NCBI GenBank assembly: GCA_951406725.2
Contig: OX597816.1
Location: 83,700,001 to 83,764,000 of the forward strand
Source of the DNA: Octopus vulgaris
Taxonomy: Eukaryota
Reading direction: 5' to 3'
DNA length: 64,000 bases
The translations under genes were made by a program, and so were the position numbers. The notes beneath the pieces were generated by a model that worked only from the letters and a program-made list of their open reading frames with translations, was not told the origin of the DNA and made no database searches. Below are positions 7,804-59,945 of this stretch, piece after piece. Position 1 is the first letter of the stretch, and each line of letters begins with the position of its first letter.

Positions 7804-8899
7804 CAGCAATGGGCCGAGAGGAAACTGTCCCTAAAAGGTCGGGCGGAGGTGGTGAACGCGTACATCGCGCCCATCATCTACTACCGCCTGACCGTCGTAC
7901 CTTGTCCCGACCCTACCATCACCAAACTAGAACGCATCCTCTTCCGCTTCTTGTGGAAAGGATGCGTCCCGATGGTCAGGCGATCCATTTGCTGTCAACA
8001 CCCGTTAAAAGGAGGGCTGGGCATGCCGTGGTTGATGATGCGCAGACACGCGCTGAGACTGCGACATCTCCGGCTCTATGTAGACGACGGTGAACAGGTG
8101 TGGTCGCCGTTTGTGAGGCACGCATTCCCGCAACTCGTCTCCATGACCGAACTACAGTCGTGGATCAAAAAGAGGCCGAAGAAGGGCGAATGGCACCGCG
8201 AGTGTCGCGTTGCTCTCAAGCAACTCTGCCGTCCCGGGTCGACCTTGAGTGACTTCAACACAACCAAAGCATTCTATAGGGGATTAGTGGAGGGGAGGTA
8301 CGACGACGAGCTCGGGGCAAACCTGGGCGTCGACGAGGAATACCTGACCCGCCTGTTTCAAACGACTTTCGGCCCGGGACCTATGGACAACTTCCAGAGA
8401 TCCCTGGCCTGGCGGTGCTACCGAGAAGCGCTACCCGTTCGGGATAAGCTCTATAGGCATGGCTCGAGAAACACGGGGCCGACCTGCCCGAGATGCGGGC
8501 AGAGCGACGAAACCGCTCTGCACGCAATAGTGTCCAACAATTTCCCACCTGTGGGCTTATGTCGAACGACTGCTGTCACGTGTGGGACGTGTCGGTTTAT
8601 CCGCCGAGTCTATCGTTAATATCGTCACGCCTCCTTCCTTCAAACGGGAAGGAAGAGCTATTTTTATCATACTTGTGGCTATGGCGAAAGAATGTATCTG
8701 GTGGACGCGTCTGAAAGGATTAGAGACAAACACTTTCCTCTCTGGTCAATCTCTCATCAACTTCTTCAAGTATCACTTGAAGAAAAAAGTGAGAGTAGAG
8801 AGGCAAGTTTTGTCTAGTGAATGTTTTAAAAAAAGATGGGTGAATGTAGCAAGGATGGCACGTATGAATGACGAAGCCACCTTGACTATGATTCTATGA
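7804..8899 (+). pseudogene. Tx1/L1 ORF2 C-terminal fragment, frameshifted
   Basis: ORFs 7849..8619 and 8582..8899 join across a +1 shift at ETALHAIV/(QC)PTI. The paralogue at ~17870 reads ETLLHSLVECPGI continuously through this point. Confidence 0.9.
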
Positions 8900-9298
8900 A
8901 CCGTAAAAATTAATACAGAGAGTTGCTTATTTGCAAAAAAAAAAAAAAATATAACATGTGACTTCATTGACCGAGGTTACCGTGGTCTTTTCCGTAGGCT
9001 TTTATTTCCACGGGTAAACCTCACCTGTCCTCCCCTTTACACTTCATATTGACATTTCTGTGATAACGATCCCTATTGATCAATTTTTTTCCTCCCCCTT
9101 TTTTTTTAACCCCCCCCCTTTTTTTGTCCTCTTTCTCTCCTTTTACGATCCCTTTTGATCGACCCCCCCTTTTTATTTTATTTTATTTTTTATTTTATTA
9201 TTATTATTATTATTATTTTTTTTTAAACCTTCAAAAGAAAAGCTCTACCTTGTTTTTGTTCTATCTGTGTGCAGCCCTGTGTGGCTAATAAAGAAACA
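7804..9298 (+). mobile_element. 5'-truncated Tx1/L1-clade non-LTR retrotransposon (ORF2 C-terminus plus 3' UTR)
   Basis: The frame from 7804 reads QQWAERKLSLKGRAEVVNAYIAPIIYY...FRFLWKG...GGLGMP (L1/Tx1 post-RT motifs) and zf-RVT LAWRCYREALPVRDKL...CPRCGQSDETALH. There is one frameshift near 8532 and a stop at 8897-8899. The 3' UTR is pyrimidine-rich with AATAAA at 9287-9292, and (TATC)n lies on both sides. Confidence 0.93.
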
Positions 9299-17771: not shown

Positions 17772-18453
17772 CGAACGGGGGGGTGCTACCGGTTCGAGAT
17801 AAACTTTACAGGCACAGATGTGGTATCAGACGGACTTCTCCGATGCGTACGCAGATTGAGGAAACCCTTTTGCACTCCCTCGTAGAGTGTCCGGGCATTG
17901 CTGACTTGTGAGGTTATGTCGAACAGCTGCTGTCACGTGTGGGACGGTTCTGTCTACCGGCTGAGTCTGTAGTGATGATCGCACCGCAGCTTTCCTTCAA
18001 TCGATCAGGCAAAGCAGTTTTTCTCTGCCTGGTGGCTGTGGCGAAAGAGGTTGTTTGGTGGGCAAAGCTGAAACGTATGAGGATGATATATTCCTCTTTA
18101 GTAGAGCTCTCATTGACTTCAAGTTTGAAAAGGAAATTGAGAGTGGAGAGGGAAGTGCTCTCCTCGAATGAGTTTTATTGAAAGGTGGGTGAAAGTTGCA
18201 AAAATGGCAAGAATGGATGGTACGTCTCTAATTGTAGACCTGTGAGTTGGAGAGGGTGAATTGGAGAGGGTATTTGCTCGTGGGGTTTCAGGAAATCTCG
18301 GACAGTAGGATTCCTGGATTGTCCCTATAGGCCTTCCTGCATCAGGAGGACCGCATCTCTATCATCCTTCCCGCCACATTTTTAAAAACATTTGTATGCT
18401 ATGCATACAAAGGCATTAAGTGTACAACATGAATACTAATTTTCTTTCTTTCC

Positions 18454-18456
<3 letters not shown>
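17772..18456 (+). mobile_element. Older, degenerate Tx1/L1-clade 3' fragment related to 7804-9298
   Basis: GVLPVRDKLYRH...EETLLHSLVECPGIADL*GYVEQLLSRVGRFCLPAESVV...AVFLCLVAVAKEVVWW aligns with the 8.4-8.9 kb protein. It carries stops and frameshifts and is flanked by (TTA)n. Confidence 0.88.
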
Positions 18457-18522
<66 letters not shown>

Positions 18523-19165: not shown

Positions 19166-19380
19166 TGGCGGTGAGCCGACGAAATCCTTAGGATGCCCGG
19201 CAAAATGCTTAGCAGTATTTCGTCCGTTCTTACATTCCGAGTTCAAATTCCGCCGAGGTCGACTTTGCCATTCATTCTTTCGGGTTCAAGAAAAGTACCA
19301 GTGAAACACTGGAGTCAATGTAATTGACCTCTTCCCTTCCACTATATTCCAGGTCCTGTGCCTTTAGTAGAAAGGATATT
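19166..19380 (+). mobile_element. SINE family B, monomer
   Basis: GGCGGTGAGCCGAC...GAGTTCAAATTCCGCCGAGGTCGACTTTGCC...TGTGCCTTTAGTAGAAAGGATATT. Confidence 0.85.
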
Positions 19381-19459
19381 ATTATTATTATTAGTAGTAG
19401 TAGTAGTAGTATTAGCAGCAGTAGTAGTATTAATAGTAGTAGTAGTAGTAGTAGTAGTG

Positions 19460-27862: not shown

Positions 27863-28082
27863 AAGGCGGTGAGTTGGCAGAGTCGTTAGCAGACTGGACG
27901 AAATGCATACTGGTATTTCGCCCGTCGCTACGTTCTGAGTTCAAATGCTGCCGAGGTCGACTTTGCCTTTCAGCTTTTCAGGTTCAATTAAATAAGTGTG
28001 TATCAGTTACGCACTGGGGTCGATGTAATCGTCTAAATCTCTGCCCCCAAATTTCAGGCCTTGTGCTATCAGTAAAAGATTA
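27863..28082 (+). mobile_element. SINE family B, monomer
   Basis: AAGGCGGTGAGTTGGCAGAGTCGTTAGC...GGTATTTCG...GAGTTCAAAT...CCCCAAATTTCAGGCCTTGTGC. Confidence 0.88.
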
Positions 28083-35681: not shown

Positions 35682-35889
35682 CCTTTCTACTATAGGCCTA
35701 AAATTTGAGAGAAGGGACTCTAGTCGATTACTTCGACCCCAGTGCTCATCTGGTACTTATTTCATTGATCGCGAAAGGATGGAAAGCAAAGTCGACCTCG
35801 GTGGAATTTGAACTCAGAACGTAAAGACAGACGAAATGCTGCTAAGCACTTTCTCCGGCGGGTTAACGATTCTACCAACTCGTCGCCTT
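35682..35889 (-). mobile_element. SINE family B monomer with 17-bp TSD
   Basis: Complete head to tail, flanked by AAAATATCAAGAAATAT (35665-35681) and AAAGTATCAAGAAATAT (35891-35907). Confidence 0.9.
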
Positions 35890-37343: not shown

Positions 37344-37562
37344 AAGGCGGTGAGCTGGCCAGAATCATTAGCACGCTTAATGCACATCGTTTGTCTTAAC
37401 GCACCGAGTTTAAATTCCGCCGAGGCCGACTTTGCCATTTATCATTTCAGGGTCGATAAAATAAATATCTGTTCGATAAAATATGTACTGTGGTCGATGC
37501 AATCGACTTATCCCGTCCCACCATCACGAACCTGCTGGCCTTGTATCAGAATTTTGGAACCA
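37344..37562 (+). mobile_element. SINE family B, diverged monomer
   Basis: AAGGCGGTGAGCTGGCCAGAATCATTAGC...AAATTCCGCCGAGGCCGACTTTGCC...GGTCGATGCAATCGACT. Confidence 0.8.
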
Positions 37563-46892: not shown

Positions 46893-47301
46893 CTTTTCTT
46901 TTCTACTCTAGACACAAGGCCCGAAATTTTGGGGAAGGGGAGCAGTCGATTAGATCGACCCCAGTTCGCAACTGGTACTCAATTTATTGACCCCGAAAGG
47001 ATGATAGGTAAAGTCGACCTCGGCAGAATTTGAACTTAGAACGTAAAGACAGCCGAAATACCTATTTCTATTTCTTTACTATCCACAAGGAGCTAAACAC
47101 AGAGGGGACACACAAGGACAGACACACGAATTAAGTCGATTACATCGACCCCAGTGCGTAACTGGTACGTAATTTATCGACCCCGAAAGGATGAAAGGCA
47201 AAGTCGACCTCGGCGGAATTTGAACTCAGCACGTAGCGGCAGACGAAATACCGCTAAGCATTTCGCCCGGCGTGCTAACGTTTCTGCCAGATTATCGCCT
47301 T
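46893..47301 (-). mobile_element. SINE family B dimer with 15-bp TSD
   Basis: Two body units joined by the Tx1-like linker; TSD AGATAGATAGA(C/T)ATT at 46878-46892 and 47302-47316. Confidence 0.92.
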
Positions 47302-51270: not shown

Positions 51271-51490
51271 TCCTTTCTAATAAAAGCACAAAACGTGAAA
51301 CTTTTTTGGGGAAGTGGGTAAGTCGATCACGTCGACTTTAGTGTATCACTCATACTTAATTTATCGACCCCCCAAAAAGTTGAAAGGTAAAGTCGACCTC
51401 GGCGGTATTTGAAATGAGAACATAAGGACGGTCGAAATGCCGCTAAGCATTTTGCCCAGCTTATTAACGATTCTGGCAGCTCGCCACCTT
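51271..51490 (-). mobile_element. SINE family B monomer
   Basis: From tail CCTTTCTAAT to head GCTCGCCACCTT; a degenerate + strand copy follows at ~51525-51695. Confidence 0.85.
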
Positions 51491-54751: not shown

Positions 54752-55001
54752 TTTGTTCCTTTTAGATCCATGCCTGGTTCATAAGGGCCACTTTTTCGGT
54801 TTCATTGGCATATAGGTTCCCAACCTGGACGGGACGCCGTTCCATCAAAGGTGAGCTGCTAAATGCCATTACCTTCTGCTGGAACCGCGTTGAGCGTAGG
54901 TGTTTCGCTCACAAATACACATATCACCCGGTCTGAGATTCGAACACGCGATCCTTCGACCGCGAGTCCGCTGCTCAAACCACTAGGTCATGTGCTTCCA
55001 C
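54752..55001 (-). mobile_element. SINE family C
   Basis: tRNA-like head (reverse complement GTGGAAGCACATGACCTAGTGG...GTGTTCGAATC); tail as at 52710-52872. Confidence 0.8.
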
Positions 55002-55025
55002 AGATTAAATACTATAATCAATATT

Positions 55026-55553
55026 CTTTTCTACTCTAAGCACAAGGCCCGAAATTTTTGGGGAGGGGACAACTGTTACTTAATTTATCGACCCCGAAAA
55101 GATGAAAGGCAAAGTCGACCTCGGCCGAATTCGAGCTCAGAACGTAGCGACGGGCGAAATACCTATTTCTTTACTACCCACAAGGGGTTAAACACAGAGA
55201 GGACAAACAAGGACAGACAAACGGATTAAGTCGATTATATCGACCACAGTGCGTAACTGGTACTTACTTAATCGACCCCGAAAGGATGAAAGGCAAAGTC
55301 GACCTCGGCGGAATTCGGGCTCAGAACGTGAAGAGAGACGAAATACCTATTTCTTTACTACCAGAGAGGACAAACACAGAAAGGACAAACAAGGACAGAC
55401 AAACAGATTAAGTCGATTGTGTCGACCCCAGTGCGTAACTGGTACTTATTTAATCGACCCCTCGGCGGAATTTGAACTCAGAACGTAGCGGCAGATGAAA
55501 TACTGCTAAGCATTTCGCCCGGCGTGCTAACGTTTCTGCCAGCTCGCCGCCTT
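55026..55553 (-). mobile_element. SINE family B trimer with perfect 18-bp TSD
   Basis: Three body units and two Tx1-like linkers; AATACTATAATCAATATT at 55008-55025 and 55554-55571. Confidence 0.93.
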
Positions 55554-55798
55554 AATACTATAATCAATATTACTTGACAACACCCACATAATCAAAACTT
55601 TACCGTGTACTACTATACTACTGCTACAGCTACTGCTACTGCTAGTGGGTGGAATTGGCTGATGTTGCCATTCATGTAACGCTTAACAACTATTGCTTCC
55701 TAGGCGAAGCCGGTGGTTTTAAACTTTTATTTGTGGCACAATTTAGATAAAATATATTTTTATGACGTACTTCCTAAATCATGTTAGAAATCAGGTTT

Positions 55799-56114
55799 TG
55801 GCTGTGTGTGTTAAAAAGGTTGCTTTCCAGCCATGTGGTTTCTGGTTCTGTTCCACTCTGCAGCACGTTGGACTAGTGCCTTCTTCTACAGCCTTAAACC
55901 ATATTGCTTTATGAGTGAAGTTGGTAGAGGGAATCTGTTTTGAGAACCCGTCATAAAATATACATGTGTGTGTGTGTGCATGTGTACGTGCGTGTGTATG
56001 TTGTATGTGTGGTCGTGTGTGTGTGCTTTCCCCTGCACTGCTTTAAAATCGGAGTCGATTTGTTCGACTAAGCCCGTTAGGACGGTGCCCAGCAAAGCCG
56101 TAGTCAAATGATGG

Positions 56115-56118
<4 letters not shown>
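55799..56118 (+). mobile_element. SINE family A, diverged
   Basis: TGGCTGTGTGTG head, (TG)n middle and tail GGTGCCCAGCAAAGCCGTAGTCAAATGA. Confidence 0.75.
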
Positions 56119-56166
<48 letters not shown>

Positions 56167-56448
56167 GGTCCCGTTCTCTTGAATGAAACAGTTCTAGTCC
56201 TGTAGAAGCTCCTTCTATATAATAAATATATATATATATATATATATATACAGCTATTATGCTTACTACCCACAAAACACCACCACGTGGATTCTGTTGA
56301 GACCAGTAAGAAACAATTATGAACTATTTTATTACACTTAACTTTAAAAAATTTTTTTGATAAGGTTCGTTCTTTCAGGAAGAACCGAAACACGTAAAAT
56401 TTCTAAGACAATTAAAATTTATCTTATATAGTGGCGTTTTCAAACTTC

Positions 56449-56542
<94 letters not shown>

Positions 56543-56552
56543 GAAAAGGGAT

Positions 56553-56583
<31 letters not shown>

Positions 56584-57097
56584 TGTAGATAGATAGATAG
56601 ATATACAACACATACTAGTGCTATTCGTAATGTGACAGGTGACTTTCGCTGTATGATGGGTAATATCAGGAAATATACCATATTTACGAGAATTTATTTG
56701 GTGCTTCTATAAAATGATGAAATGAATGCTAGATTTTGAAGGAAATGTAGTTATTACCTTAAATCAAATAAAATATTTCTCATATGTATAACTCCTTTCA
56801 TAACTACTCTCATTTAACCTCTCTCTCCTCTTCCTCTTTTGTCTCTATGATTCTTTCTCGCTTTGTGAGCGTGCGAGCGCGTGTGTAGCGTTCTTTTACT
56901 AATTGCTTGTCAGTGAAACTAGTATGTGTACTCATCCGGCACCACTCATGTCAACTGTCTTTGTATCTCTCTCTCTTTCTCCTCTCTGAGAAATCAATTA
57001 GCATATTGACTCATATATACACACAGGCAATGGCATGTCAACTTCGTAGAGTTCTTGATTTTTGGTGTAGTATACAAGTTCATTGAATCGAAATATT

Positions 57098-57496
57098 CTT
57101 TTCTACTCAAGGCACAATGCCCGAAATTTTGGGGGAGAGGGCCAGTCGTTTAGCTCGACTCCAGTACGCAACTGGTACTTAATTTATCGACCCCACAAAA
57201 GGATGAAAGGCAAAGTCAACTTCAACGGAATTTGAACTCAGAACTTAAAGACAGACGAAATACCTATTTCTTTACTACCCACAAGGTGCTAAACACAGAG
57301 AGGACAAACAAGGATAGACAAACGGATTAAGTCGATTACATCGACCTCAGTGCGTAACTGGTTCTTAATTTATCGACCCCGAAGGGTGAAAGGTAAAGTC
57401 GACCTCGGCGAAATTTGAACTCAGACCCTAACGGCAATCGAAATACGGCTACACATTTCGCCCGGCGTGCTAACGTTTCTGCCAGCTCGCCGCCTT
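57098..57496 (-). mobile_element. SINE family B dimer with perfect 16-bp TSD
   Basis: ATTGAATCGAAATATT at 57082-57097 and 57497-57512; linker at 57265-57329. Confidence 0.93.
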
Positions 57497-58338
57497 ATTG
57501 AATCGAAATATTAATAATTTAAGAACCCGATGAAAGATAGGTGGAGCGCATAAGCGAATAATTTTGATGCCAGACTTGATCGGAAGCTTTCCAAAGAGCG
57601 AGAAAATCGGCATTTTATCAACATTTGTCTAAGGCGAGAGCTCACTAGATCAAGCTTATGGGAAACCTTACTATAGTTCGTAAAGTTATTTATCATAGTA
57701 AACATTTACAAGCAAGACCATGTACTTATAGTATACTTATATGCAATTTTGGTCTTGTATTAGCAACCATTTAAAAGCGATTTCGATCCATGGCAAATGG
57801 CAACGAAAAGAAATTCTGTTTAAACATTTTCATTATAGAGTAATCACCCCCACCATCTCTCACTTTCCTTACTGCTAATGTTCCGTTTCATTCCTTTGCC
57901 TTCAACAACATCAATAATAACAACAATAACGACTACGACAACTAAAAACAACACTAACAACGACAACAGTAACAACCCACTTCAAGTGTTTTATTAAGAG
58001 CTGTGTGGTAAAGGGGTTGTCTGTATAATCGTTAGAGTTTATCAAATAATCTTTTTATACAACACGGGGGCTGTCTGACGGGAAACTTTCCCCAAACAAA
58101 CAATCAACTGCCAACTACTTGAATAACAGATCGTATCTTAACGACTAGTTAAACTGACGGCGTCCCATGTAGATTACTGGTAGATGCGGTTGATGGTGGC
58201 AGTGGCGGAAATAATTTTGATGGTGGTGGAGGTGGTGGTGGTGGTGGTGGTGGTGGTAGTGGGGGTGGGGTGATGGCGTTGGGAGTATAATTGTTGGTAG
58301 TGTTTTTGTTGTTGTTGGTAGTGATGATGGTGCTTGTA

Positions 58339-58660
58339 GTGAAAGCGCGTGGCTTGGTGGTTAGGGTATTCGGCTCACGATCGTGAGGTCGTGAGTTCAA
58401 TTCCCGGTGGCGCGTTGTGTCCTTAAGCAAGACACTTTATTTCACAGTGCTCCAGTCCGCTCAGCTGGCAAAAATGAGTAGTGTCTGTATTTCAAAGGAC
58501 CAGCCTCGTCACACTCTGTGTCACGCTGAAATCTACTTAAGTACTACATTAAGGGTACACGTGTTTGTGGAGTGCTCAGCCACTTCCACGTTAATTTCAC
58601 GAACAGGATGTTCTGCTGATCGGATCAACTTGAACCCTCATCGTCGTAACCGATGGAGTT
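58339..58660 (+). mobile_element. tRNA-derived CORE-type SINE, family C variant with a different 3' half
   Basis: A box TGGCTTGGTGG, B box GAGTTCAATTCC and CORE-like TGTCCTTAAGCAAGACACTTTA; it ends ...CGTCGTAACCGATGGAGT. Confidence 0.87.
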
Positions 58661-58838
58661 CTAGGGAGTGCTAGGGATTGCCAGGGAGTACCGAGGAGTG
58701 CCAGGAAGTGCCATGGAGTACCAGGGTGTGCCGGGGAGTGCCAGTGAGTGCCGCCAGTGAGTGCCGGGGAGTACCAGTGAGTGCCAGTGAATGCCGGGGA
58801 GTGCCAGGGAGTGGCGAGGAGTGCCAGGGAGTGCCAAG
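58655..58838 (+). repeat. Minisatellite with ~10-11-bp unit GGAGTGCCAGG
   Basis: Roughly 17 imperfect copies of (G)GAGTGCCAG(G) directly follow the SINE end. Confidence 0.9.
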
Positions 58839-59052
58839 TGATGCTAGTAGTAGTGGCGTGGTTAGAAATAATTTTGACAGCAGTGTTGTTCCTGTTGTTA
58901 TTGTGTCTTGTAGTTTTATCAACATTGGTGGTGGTAATTGCTGTGATGTTCTTGTTAGTGTTGTTCTTTGTAATGTTCGCATTAGTGCTGGTGCTGGTGC
59001 ATTTGTAAATAGTATTGCTGTTAATGGTGGTGATGATGTTGATGGTAATGAT

Positions 59053-59432
59053 AAAGCGGCGAGTTGGCAGAGTCGTTAGCACGCCGGGCGAAATGCTTAG
59101 CGGTATTTCGGCTGCCGCTACGTTCTGAGTTCAAATTCCACCGAGGTCGACTTTGCTTTTCATCCTATCGGGGTCGATTAAATAAGTGCCAGTTACGCAC
59201 TGGGATCGATATAATCGACTTAATCCGTTTGTCTGTCCTTGTCTGTCCCTTCTGTTTTTAGCCCCTTGTGGGTAGTAAACAAACAGGTATTTACGTTCTG
59301 AGTTCAAATTCCGCCGAGGTCAACTTTGCCTTTCATCCTTTCGGGGTCGATAAATTAAGCACGAGTTACGCACTGGGATCGATTTAATCAACTGCCCTTC
59401 CCCCCAAAACATTGTGCCTAGCGTAGAAAAAG
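59053..59432 (+). mobile_element. SINE family B dimer with 18-bp TSD (2 mismatches)
   Basis: GATGTTGATGGTAATGAT (59035-59052) / GATGTTCATAGTAATGAT (59433-59450); linker at 59221-59285. Confidence 0.9.
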
Positions 59433-59945
59433 GATGTTCATAGTAATGATGTTGAATCCCAGTGTTGGTGGTTGTGGTAATTTTACTAATGTTGTTCTTG
59501 GTGATGGTAATGCTGGAGCTGTTGCTGTTGTTGTTGTTGTTGTTGTTGGTGGTGGTGGTGTATATATTGTTATTGGTGCGGTTGTTGGTGGCAGTGATGC
59601 TCATCGTCATCTTAATGTTAGTGGTGGTGTTTGTTGAAGGACGAATAGTTGATGTTCTTATTAATATTAGAAGTCGTATAATTACTGAAAAATAATATTT
59701 TGTATGCGGGGCTTATCATCGTCAACGTCGACATCATCATCATCGTCACCATCATCATTATTATTATTATTGTTATAATCATCATCAACATCATCGAAAT
59801 ATACACTTGTTTCAATACATCTTTGCATCATGTCAAAGTGATGAATCATTTAGATATTTGACAAGATACAAAGATGTATTGAACTAACAGTACATTATTA
59901 AAATTTTATTATCATCATCATCATCATTATTATTATAATATTAAA

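What the first reader, a model, noticed from the sequence alone, without database searches (positions are those of the whole stretch)
55026..55553. SINE-B dimers/trimers are joined by a Tx1 LINE 3' tail and always restart at one site in the SINE head: candidate self-targeting SINE multimerisation system
Seen: SINE-B occurs as monomers (19166, 27863, 35682, 37344, 51271), dimers (46893, 57098, 59053) and a trimer (this locus). Each extra unit is body plus a ~65-bp linker, and the next unit always resumes at GGTATTT(CG), a site inside the tRNA-like head between the A and B boxes. The consensus linker end CCTTGTTT--GTCCTCTCTGTGTTTAGCCCCTTGTGGGTAGTAAAGAAATA aligns with the last 51 nt of the Tx1 element (9248-9298, CCTTGTTTTTGTTCTATCTGTGTGCAGCCCTGTGTGGCTAATAAAGAAACA) at 40/49 positions plus a 2-nt gap, by hand count. 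Both carry a small terminal hairpin (AGCC/GGCT vs GCCC/GGGT). Known: SINEs borrow the 3' tail of a partner LINE, and many Tx1-clade LINEs are sequence-specific for multicopy targets (tRNA arrays, snRNA genes, microsatellites). Inference: a Tx1-tailed SINE-B variant inserts at a fixed site in other SINE-B heads and regenerates that site, so arrays can grow. The multimer keeps its promoter and the outer, different tail, and so may use two LINE machineries.
Basis: partly seen in the sequence, partly recalled or inferred. Interest (0 to 1): 0.85.

Follow-up and report, generated by a model that had tools for sequence, protein, structure and literature searches.

The report
SINE that inserts into its own head
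A short jumping repeat in this genome has many times inserted at one fixed spot inside other copies of itself, likely because its RNA pairs with that spot, and this likely seeded the tens of thousands of head-to-tail multimers now present.

Summary
The window observation holds: five monomers, three dimers and one trimer; inner units restart at GGTATTT. The 65-base linker is the ordinary 3' tail of a SINE-B subfamily and resembles Tx1-group LINE ends (p ≤ 0.0005 against shuffles). Genome-wide, 21,791 of 59,934 exact tail ends run into the site. Self-insertion is real: in 25 of 43 candidate loci (29 by eye) a full tailed copy sits at that site in another copy's head. The 13-17-base duplication carries the host's own variants on both sides (20 of 35 shared; permutation maximum 13). 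A control site gave 0 of 12.

Corrections: a second restart site exists. The window's Tx1 family targets (TATC)n and was not found at the site. Dispersed copies also land on GG-starting sites, and short RNA-target homology alone predicts about as many visible self-insertions (150-440) as estimated (~280). Arrays of four or more units mostly grew by local duplication. How seamless dimers arise, as copied read-through RNA or by in-place head replacement, is unresolved. Verdict: a real self-insertion loop, likely homology-primed rather than driven by a dedicated site-specific LINE.

The parts
55505..55553 (-). SINE-B head, first 47-49 bases with A-box-like motif; the only head of the trimer
   Evidence: box assignment by eye from recalled Pol III consensus
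55411..55504 (-). unit 1 body (about 25-base internal deletion), with B-box-like GTTCAAATTC
55348..55410 (-). Tx1-like tail 1 (the 'linker')
55229..55347 (-). unit 2 body, starting at the GGTATTT site (55341-55347); shares two rare changes with unit 3 that co-occur in no other of 491 units
55164..55228 (-). Tx1-like tail 2
55072..55163 (-). unit 3 body, starting at the GGTATTT site (55157-55163), 3' part deleted
55026..55071 (-). outer (O-type) tail, the same as in O-type monomers; partner LINE not found
55008..55025 (.). 18-base target-site duplication, copy at the element's 3' end
55554..55571 (.). 18-base target-site duplication, copy at the element's 5' end (identical)
57098..57496 (-). 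dimer: head + tailed unit + O unit; junction site 57258-57264; perfect 16-base duplication at 57082-57097 / 57497-57512
46898..47301 (-). dimer, junction with an extra GAAATA, in (TATC)n context
59053..59430 (+). dimer, short deletion after the junction site
19166..19381 (+). O-type monomer (approximate ends)
27863..28070 (+). O-type monomer (approximate ends)
35682..35889 (-). O-type monomer (approximate ends)
37344..37560 (+). monomer with a third (P-type) tail, old (approximate ends)
51271..51490 (-). O-type monomer (approximate ends)
7804..9298 (+). 5'-truncated young Tx1/L1-group LINE inserted in (TATC)n; last ~51 bases resemble the SINE tail; not shown to be the mobiliser
17783..18460 (+). 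fragment of a second, older Tx1-group family whose intact copies end in a similar tail + (ATC/ATT)n

Best explanation
A SINE-B subfamily with a Tx1-like 65-base tail has repeatedly inserted, with 13-17-base target-site duplications, at one GGTATTT site inside other copies' heads, likely because the RNA bases just past the tail pair with the nicked target, and the nested loci then likely spread as read-through RNAs and lengthened by local duplication. Steps: (1) Shown: the tail is a free 3' end of thousands of dispersed copies and resembles Tx1-group ends. Inferred: a Tx1-group protein copies the RNA starting right after AAAGAAATA. (2) Shown: the target duplication begins at that base and starts with what the RNA would read next (GG.., TATA.., AGAA..); in several loci the first bases of the 3' copy read GGTAT where the target differed. 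Inferred: priming by short RNA-target pairing. (3) Shown: full copies inserted at the head site, which stays intact. (4) Inferred: a nested locus transcribed from the inserted head reads head + tailed unit + host remainder, which is the seamless dimer. Copied from the outer tail it gives dimers; copied from the inner tail it gives monomers whose RNA continues GGUAUUU, so they again prefer that site. About a third of the genome's GGTATTT sites (20 of 62 in 254 kb) are SINE-B sites, so the loop feeds itself. Some seamless dimers may instead form in place when the new cDNA pairs with and replaces the host head. (5) Shown: arrays of four or more units are mostly local duplicates with chimeric middle units.
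For: Nested insertions: 25 of 43 distinct candidate loci by script, 29 by eye; 20 of 35 departures from consensus in the 5' duplicate recur in the 3' duplicate, 4 in the inserted unit; permutation mean 4.9, maximum 13 in 20,000. L285 repeats a host deletion on both sides; L290 and L296 have old O-type hosts. Control anchor, twice as common (29 vs 13 in 254 kb): 28 hits, 0 of 12 read are such insertions. Dispersed G-class targets: 11 of 13 start GG, 3 of 13 carry GTATTT, no shared upstream context; 3' copy shifted towards GGTAT in L016, L019, L156, L186, L192, L296. Extrapolated visible self-insertions ~280 against 150-440 expected from GTATTT homology, 67 from GGT, 1 from uniform insertion (rough). 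Many origins: last O units are more diverged than first units (143/2521 vs 83/2563, p=0.0008; CpG decay 69/273 vs 43/277, p=0.006), 552 of 595 pairs of last units share no rare variant, and last units carry O, P or T tails. Heads are donor-like (CpG decay 37/220 in O-ended multimers, 73/342 in solo tailed copies, 35/101 in O monomers); position 14 of unit 1 is donor-type in 17 of 21 elements with a host-type last unit. Local duplication: within-array distance 0.057 vs 0.110 between arrays; L262 has 10 units 0.4% apart.
Against: No RNA data: transcription, read-through and RNA 3' ends are unobserved. The mobilising LINE is not identified. Visible nested loci are about 1% of junctions, so the route to the other 99% is inferred. 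If few source loci were active, last units should share variants, and they rarely do (at least ~100 effective sources would be needed; my estimate). Outer duplications of O-ended multimers look older than those of solo tailed copies in one test (at most 1 mismatch in 12: 11 of 28 vs 36 of 48, p=0.003), which favours growth in place; another scoring shows little difference (0.073 vs 0.064 mismatches per base). The first-versus-last difference weakens to p=0.059 under the strictest column mask. 14 of 43 candidates are not insertions, 2 of the 25 (L283, L286) have mismatched duplicates, and 5' stutters are common (194 hits). The expectation rests on 13 dispersed targets. Most fetched loci come from the first 10 Mb of one contig and were picked by exact tail matches.
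Confidence: 0.6

Rival explanations
1. In-place homing dominates: most seamless junctions are separate insertions into resident copies. The RNA pairs downstream with the host body, the cDNA pairs upstream with the host head and replaces it, leaving no visible duplication (as proposed for R2 with upstream 28S sequence).
For: Last unit older than first and head; outer duplication older-looking; last units almost never share rare variants; weak excess of shared variants at body positions 3-13 between first and last unit in 19 O/P-ended dimers (4 of 13, null 0.7, p=0.003); L301 joins a nearly consensus unit to a heavily diverged remainder.
Against: Would need self-insertions to rival or outnumber dispersed G-class insertions although SINE sites are 32 of 356 GTATTT sites. 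Duplication-age test is small and compares different tails; one search shows little difference. The window's trimer and one dimer have perfect outer duplications. Position 14 is donor-type in 17 of 21, so no hidden full duplication in most.
Confidence: 0.2
2. A dedicated sequence-specific Tx1 endonuclease cuts the SINE head.
For: Fixed site, 13-17-base duplications, Tx1-like tail; Tx1-group families here are target-selective; SINEU/Tx1-Mar precedent (PMC4494074, passages).
Against: No Tx1 copy found at the site (0 of 4 hits for the young family's end; none in 30 + 30 + 30 loci of three families). The same tail lands on TATA.. and AGAA.. sites and at a second head site. Dispersed targets share no upstream context with the head. 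Counts need no extra specificity. Other Tx1 families were not surveyed.
Confidence: 0.08
3. Seamless multimers are made by reverse-transcriptase template switching between two SINE RNAs at the shared GGUAUUU, at the loop of the head hairpin.
For: Predicts donor head, varied and more diverged last units, no shared variants; the site lies just 3' of the loop in the predicted head hairpin; 5' template jumps are common in this family.
Against: Does not explain duplicate-flanked nested copies carrying host variants on both sides; predicts young outer duplications; the hairpin is no more stable than shuffles when a window copy is folded as DNA (z=-0.25).
Confidence: 0.08
4. One ancestral dimer master plus unequal crossover explains everything.
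For: Position-specific consensus differences exist; long arrays and the window's trimer show local duplication.
Against: Independent duplicate-flanked insertions at the site; last units from several subfamilies and three tail types; unequal divergence of first and last units; a second junction.
Confidence: 0.04

Closest known systems
Tandem SINE multimers TSD-(SINE)n-TSD in the clam Scapharca broughtonii (PMC11481361, sections 15 and 16 read)
   Same: First unit with full head, inner units truncated in the head at one position, last unit with complete tail, one outer duplication.
   Different: There inner units have a truncated tail, arrays are few (64 elements in arrays of 4-15 units) and unequal recombination is the suggested cause. 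Here inner units carry a distinct Tx1-like tail, junctions number at least 21,791, and duplicate-flanked self-insertions are shown.
SINEU-3 / Tx1-Mar in crocodilians (PMC4494074, passages)
   Same: SINE likely moved by Tx1-group LINEs, fixed site in an abundant repeat, about 16-base duplication, sequential insertions giving tandems.
   Different: SINEU-3 targets another element (90% of copies in Mariner-N4) and its partner LINE shares the target. Here the target is the SINE itself, many copies are dispersed, and no LINE at the site was found.
R2 3' homology priming and seamless 5' junctions (PMC10499050 and PMC3774820, passages)
   Same: RNA extending into target sequence pairs with the nicked strand; upstream homology gives seamless junctions, with a minority of upstream-duplicated ones, like the head-duplicated copies here.
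   Different: R2 is autonomous, its protein reads the target, and it does not insert into itself. Here homology appears to supply the preference (inferred).
Fixed dimeric SINEs (Alu, B1-dID; recalled, mentioned in PMC10702118 passages) and SINE-derived satellites of squamates (PMC10702118, passages)
   Same: SINE units amplified in tandem; long arrays homogenised; period 184 is near the 150-180 range noted there.
   Different: Not one fixed dimer: unit number varies from 1 to at least 11, last units vary, and junctions arose repeatedly by insertion.
Octopus SINE families OK/OR1/OR2 (Ohshima and Okada 1994; recalled, OR2 named as a CORE SINE in PMC4758252 passages)
   Same: Probably the same taxon group: the only named homologue of the LINE ORF2 is from Argonauta hians, 60% identical.
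   Different: I could not compare sequences; the family name is not established, and Repbase/Dfam entries were not available.

Membership tests
SINE (general) | short, non-coding, dispersed at high copy number with target-site duplications | tested here: met
   59,934 exact tail matches; duplications of mean 16 bases in 36 of 48 solo tailed copies
tRNA-derived SINE | tRNA-related head with A and B boxes | tested here: inconclusive
   A/B-box-like motifs by eye (recalled consensus); ARAGORN 0 genes in the window; no tRNA match in Rfam over 54900-59600 at E ≤ 5
tRNA-derived SINE | Pol III transcription | not testable with these tools
   no listed run on record as RNA
SINE with Tx1-group partner | 3' tail similar to a LINE 3' end | tested here: met
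   scores 52-69 vs shuffle means 17-23, p ≤ 0.0005 for 9 of 10 ends tried
SINE with Tx1-group partner | LINE has APE endonuclease, RT and zinc finger, and falls in the Tx1 clade | tested here: inconclusive
Target-specific SINE-LINE pair (SINEU/Tx1-Mar type) | partner LINE shares the SINE's target | tested here: not met
   three families examined end in (TATC)n, (ATC/ATT)n or varied flanks; 0 of 4 site hits are LINEs; other families not surveyed
Target-specific SINE-LINE pair (SINEU/Tx1-Mar type) | over 20% of independent insertions in one target repeat | tested here: inconclusive
   36% of exact tail ends continue into the site, but only ~280 are visibly independent insertions
Fixed dimeric SINE (Alu type) | one junction, constant unit number, arms of equal age | tested here: not met
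   1 to 11 units, two junctions, unequal divergence
SINE-derived satellite | locally homogenised tandem units | tested here: met
   for long arrays only: 8 of 10 arrays with 4 or more tailed units share rare variants among units, against 6 of 32 two-unit elements and 3.9% of random pairs
R2-like homology-assisted integration | seamless 5' junction by cDNA pairing with upstream target | tested here: inconclusive
   searches give mixed signals; contig laying could not bridge the loci

The most novel reading that the evidence does not exclude
SINE-B is a self-homing retroelement: its RNA, being homologous to resident copies on both sides of the tail, guides target-primed insertion into other copies and replaces their heads without a scar, so most of the tens of thousands of junctions are separate in-place events that rejuvenate the promoter of old copies and give each RNA two alternative tails.
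Probability: 0.2. Interest if true: 0.85.

Novelty: new variant of a known kind. Interest (0 to 1): 0.62.

Why it matters
It gives direct genomic evidence that a SINE can become its own preferred target and that the RNA just beyond the LINE-recognised tail may steer insertion. That offers a testable route from dispersed SINEs to multimers and satellites, which has been put down to recombination alone in a similar mollusc case (PMC11481361). It also matters for annotation: such chimeric multimers would split into many consensus families and distort age estimates. If short RNA extensions redirect a Tx1-group enzyme, that is a natural case of RNA-guided priming by an APE-type LINE.

Tried and rejected
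Window's Tx1 family as site-specific partner: rejected. Single dimer master: rejected. 'Linker exists only inside multimers': rejected. Nested candidates as mere 5' template jumps: rejected for the majority by the shared-variant test, true for the control site. Hidden duplication in seamless dimers: weak signal only. Head age versus first or last unit: no correlation. LINE carrying the outer tails: none among 170 and 125 tail hits in the fetched DNA, not a genome-wide test. Contigs of 4 runs (4 organism labels, 3 studies) laid on 54800-59500: flanking contigs reach into the element edges but none bridges an element, so unit-number polymorphism is untold. No RNA holder listed. Protein database search gave only 2 LINE relatives. 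DNA hairpin at the site not better than shuffles. Earlier-findings look-ups returned nothing. Literature: 10 searches found no description of this self-insertion; the library lacks most subscription papers, Repbase Reports and the 1994 octopus SINE paper, and I did not open supplements (the repeat library of PMC13282606 may hold these consensus sequences). Only 48 of the 95 nested hits and 12 of the 28 control hits could be read; the 194 hits were not read, so self-insertion at the second junction is untested.

Full report
What is in the window. The locus is a SINE trimer on the minus strand (55026-55553) inside a perfect 18-base duplication. Each inner unit is a 119-base body plus a 65-base stretch, and all five junctions resume at GGTATTT. 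The LINE at 7804-9298 is a 5'-truncated copy of a young family (150 scored hits, 98-100% identical) whose intact ORF2 has endonuclease, RT and zinc-finger domains. The genome is 2.8 Gb in 227 contigs; the only named ORF2 homologue is from Argonauta hians, so it is likely an octopod. The Tx1 label was not tested by a tree.

The linker is a tail. Its last 24 bases occur exactly 59,934 times; 21,791 continue into the head site; 10,924 continue with two non-G bases; a variant end occurs 15,800 times. Of the first 30 matches, 15 run into another unit, 13 end in a short G-starting stub, 2 end otherwise. Many are solo copies with their own duplications (36 of 48 detected, mean 16 bases). Among 90 elements in stretches not picked for SINE content, 64 lack this tail, 11 are tailed monomers, 13 dimers, 2 trimers. 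Arrays reach 11 units. A second junction resumes near head position 17 (12 against 164 among 306 fetched tail ends).

Tail origin. The tail consensus matches the window LINE's end far above dinucleotide shuffles, as it does a second family and a third group (9 of 10 ends at p ≤ 0.0005). The first family ends in (TATC)n in 30 of 30 copies, the second in (ATC/ATT)n. The best matches (64-69) are the third group, where 14 of 30 loci carry a Tx1-like ORF1 just upstream and no ORF2. So the tail is a shared Tx1-group motif and the mobiliser is not identified. The young family's exact end followed by GGTATTT occurs 4 times; all 4 are SINE tails.

Self-insertion is real. If a full tailed copy inserts at the site, one should see host head, short duplicate, new head, body, tail, duplicate again, host remainder. 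The pattern for the first half gave 95 hits, 79 distinct by my count. I read 48 rows: the first 30 and every third of the remaining distinct ones; merging 5 repeated rows leaves 43 loci. A script found tail plus host continuation in 25; four more are clear by eye (L171, L184, L190, L285); 14 are 5' fragments, head satellites or other. In the 25, the 5' duplicate departs from consensus at 35 positions; 20 recur in the 3' duplicate and 4 in the inserted unit; permuted pairings give 4.9 on average and at most 13 in 20,000. Two loci (L283, L286) mismatch. The same search at a commoner anchor further down gave 28 hits and 0 such insertions in 12 read. 5' stutters of the head are common (194 hits, unread), which is why the variant test was needed.

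Why that site. In dispersed copies the 3' duplicate starts at the first base after the tail and begins with GG, TATA or AGAA, the three continuations that the RNA can have. Of 13 dispersed G-class targets, 11 start GG and 3 carry GTATTT; upstream bases share nothing with the head. In six loci the 3' duplicate reads closer to GGTAT than the 5' one, as expected if the RNA templated those bases. SINE sites make up 20 of 62 GGTATTT and 32 of 356 GTATTT sites in 254 kb of unselected DNA. Correcting for pattern losses gives about 280 visible self-insertions, against 150-440 expected from GTATTT homology and 1 from uniform insertion. These are rough numbers on small samples, but they need no dedicated site-specific enzyme. 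R2 offers the precedent for priming on 3' homology (PMC10499050, passages).

The seamless majority. Visible nested copies are about 1% of junctions. In 35 seamless multimers ending in the outer tail, the last unit is more diverged than the first (143/2521 vs 83/2563; p 0.0008, 0.013 and 0.059 under three masks; same direction in 8 unselected elements; CpG decay p 0.006). Last units come from several subfamilies and rarely share rare variants (552 of 595 pairs share none). Heads look as young as solo tailed copies and the first unit is donor-type at position 14 in 17 of 21. This excludes one master. It fits transcription from the inserted head of a nested locus through the host remainder, provided many loci were sources. 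It also fits in-place replacement of the host head, as proposed for R2 with upstream 28S sequence (PMC3774820, passages). Outer duplications lean towards in-place growth in one test (11 of 28 vs 36 of 48) and hardly in another. Contigs from four runs did not bridge the loci. I give the read-through route the larger share, with in-place homing as the main rival.

Long arrays. Units within an array are half as far apart as between arrays (0.057 vs 0.110). L262 has 10 units 0.4% apart; L262 and L279 have middle units whose start is last-unit type and whose end is first-unit type. Eight of 10 arrays with four or more tailed units share rare variants internally, against 6 of 32 two-unit elements. 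The window's trimer fits: units 2 and 3 share two changes that co-occur in no other of 491 units, so its third unit likely came from local duplication, not from a further insertion.

Known cases. The architecture resembles clam multimers attributed to recombination (PMC11481361, sections 15-16 read). The targeting resembles SINEU-3/Tx1-Mar (PMC4494074, passages) but fails its defining test of a LINE sharing the target. Tandem SINEs and SINE satellites are known (PMC10702118, passages). From PMC13282606 I read the first third and passages, from PMC4758252 and PMC8967140 passages; none of what I saw describes these multimers. Ten searches found no report of a SINE inserting at a fixed site in its own head; the library is incomplete and supplements were not opened.

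Verdict. Observation largely right; interpretation partly right. A new variant of a known kind: interest 0.62, up to 0.85 if in-place homing proves dominant (probability about 0.2).

Noticed in passing
L203, L205, L206, L208-L210, L213, L215, L218-L220, L222, L223, L226: Elements with a Tx1-like ORF1 (25-43% identical to the young family's ORF1 over the matched stretches) followed directly by the Tx1-like 3' tail and no ORF2: likely half-L1-type non-autonomous Tx1 derivatives, with varied flanks.
   Followed up: partly
window 7804-9298; L061-L091: Young, probably active Tx1/L1-group family targeting (TATC)n; many copies have an open 1152-codon ORF2 frame; a second family targets (ATC/ATT)n.
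   Followed up: partly
L301-L304: Four SINE tails end in the same last 18 bases as the young Tx1 family, hinting at tail exchange with LINE RNA or a rare subfamily.
   Followed up: no
L195-L199: A satellite of about 20 repeats of the 67-base SINE head alone; shorter head repeats appear among the hits.
   Followed up: no
L231-L234 and other hits: 5' fragments joined in front of full copies often stop at the GACTTT run, as prematurely terminated Pol III transcripts would; likely template jumps.
   Followed up: no
L229:1-520: Two full tailed copies separated by the same 17-base duplication at a non-SINE GGTATTT site, sharing private variants: duplication between target-site copies.
   Followed up: partly
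L190: Two successive full insertions at the same head site, each with its duplicate.
   Followed up: partly
L181, L121, L304: Inverted SINE-B pieces joined inside copies, possibly twin priming or insertion in the opposite orientation.
   Followed up: no
L149: A palindromic, MITE-like element inserted in a SINE tail.
   Followed up: no
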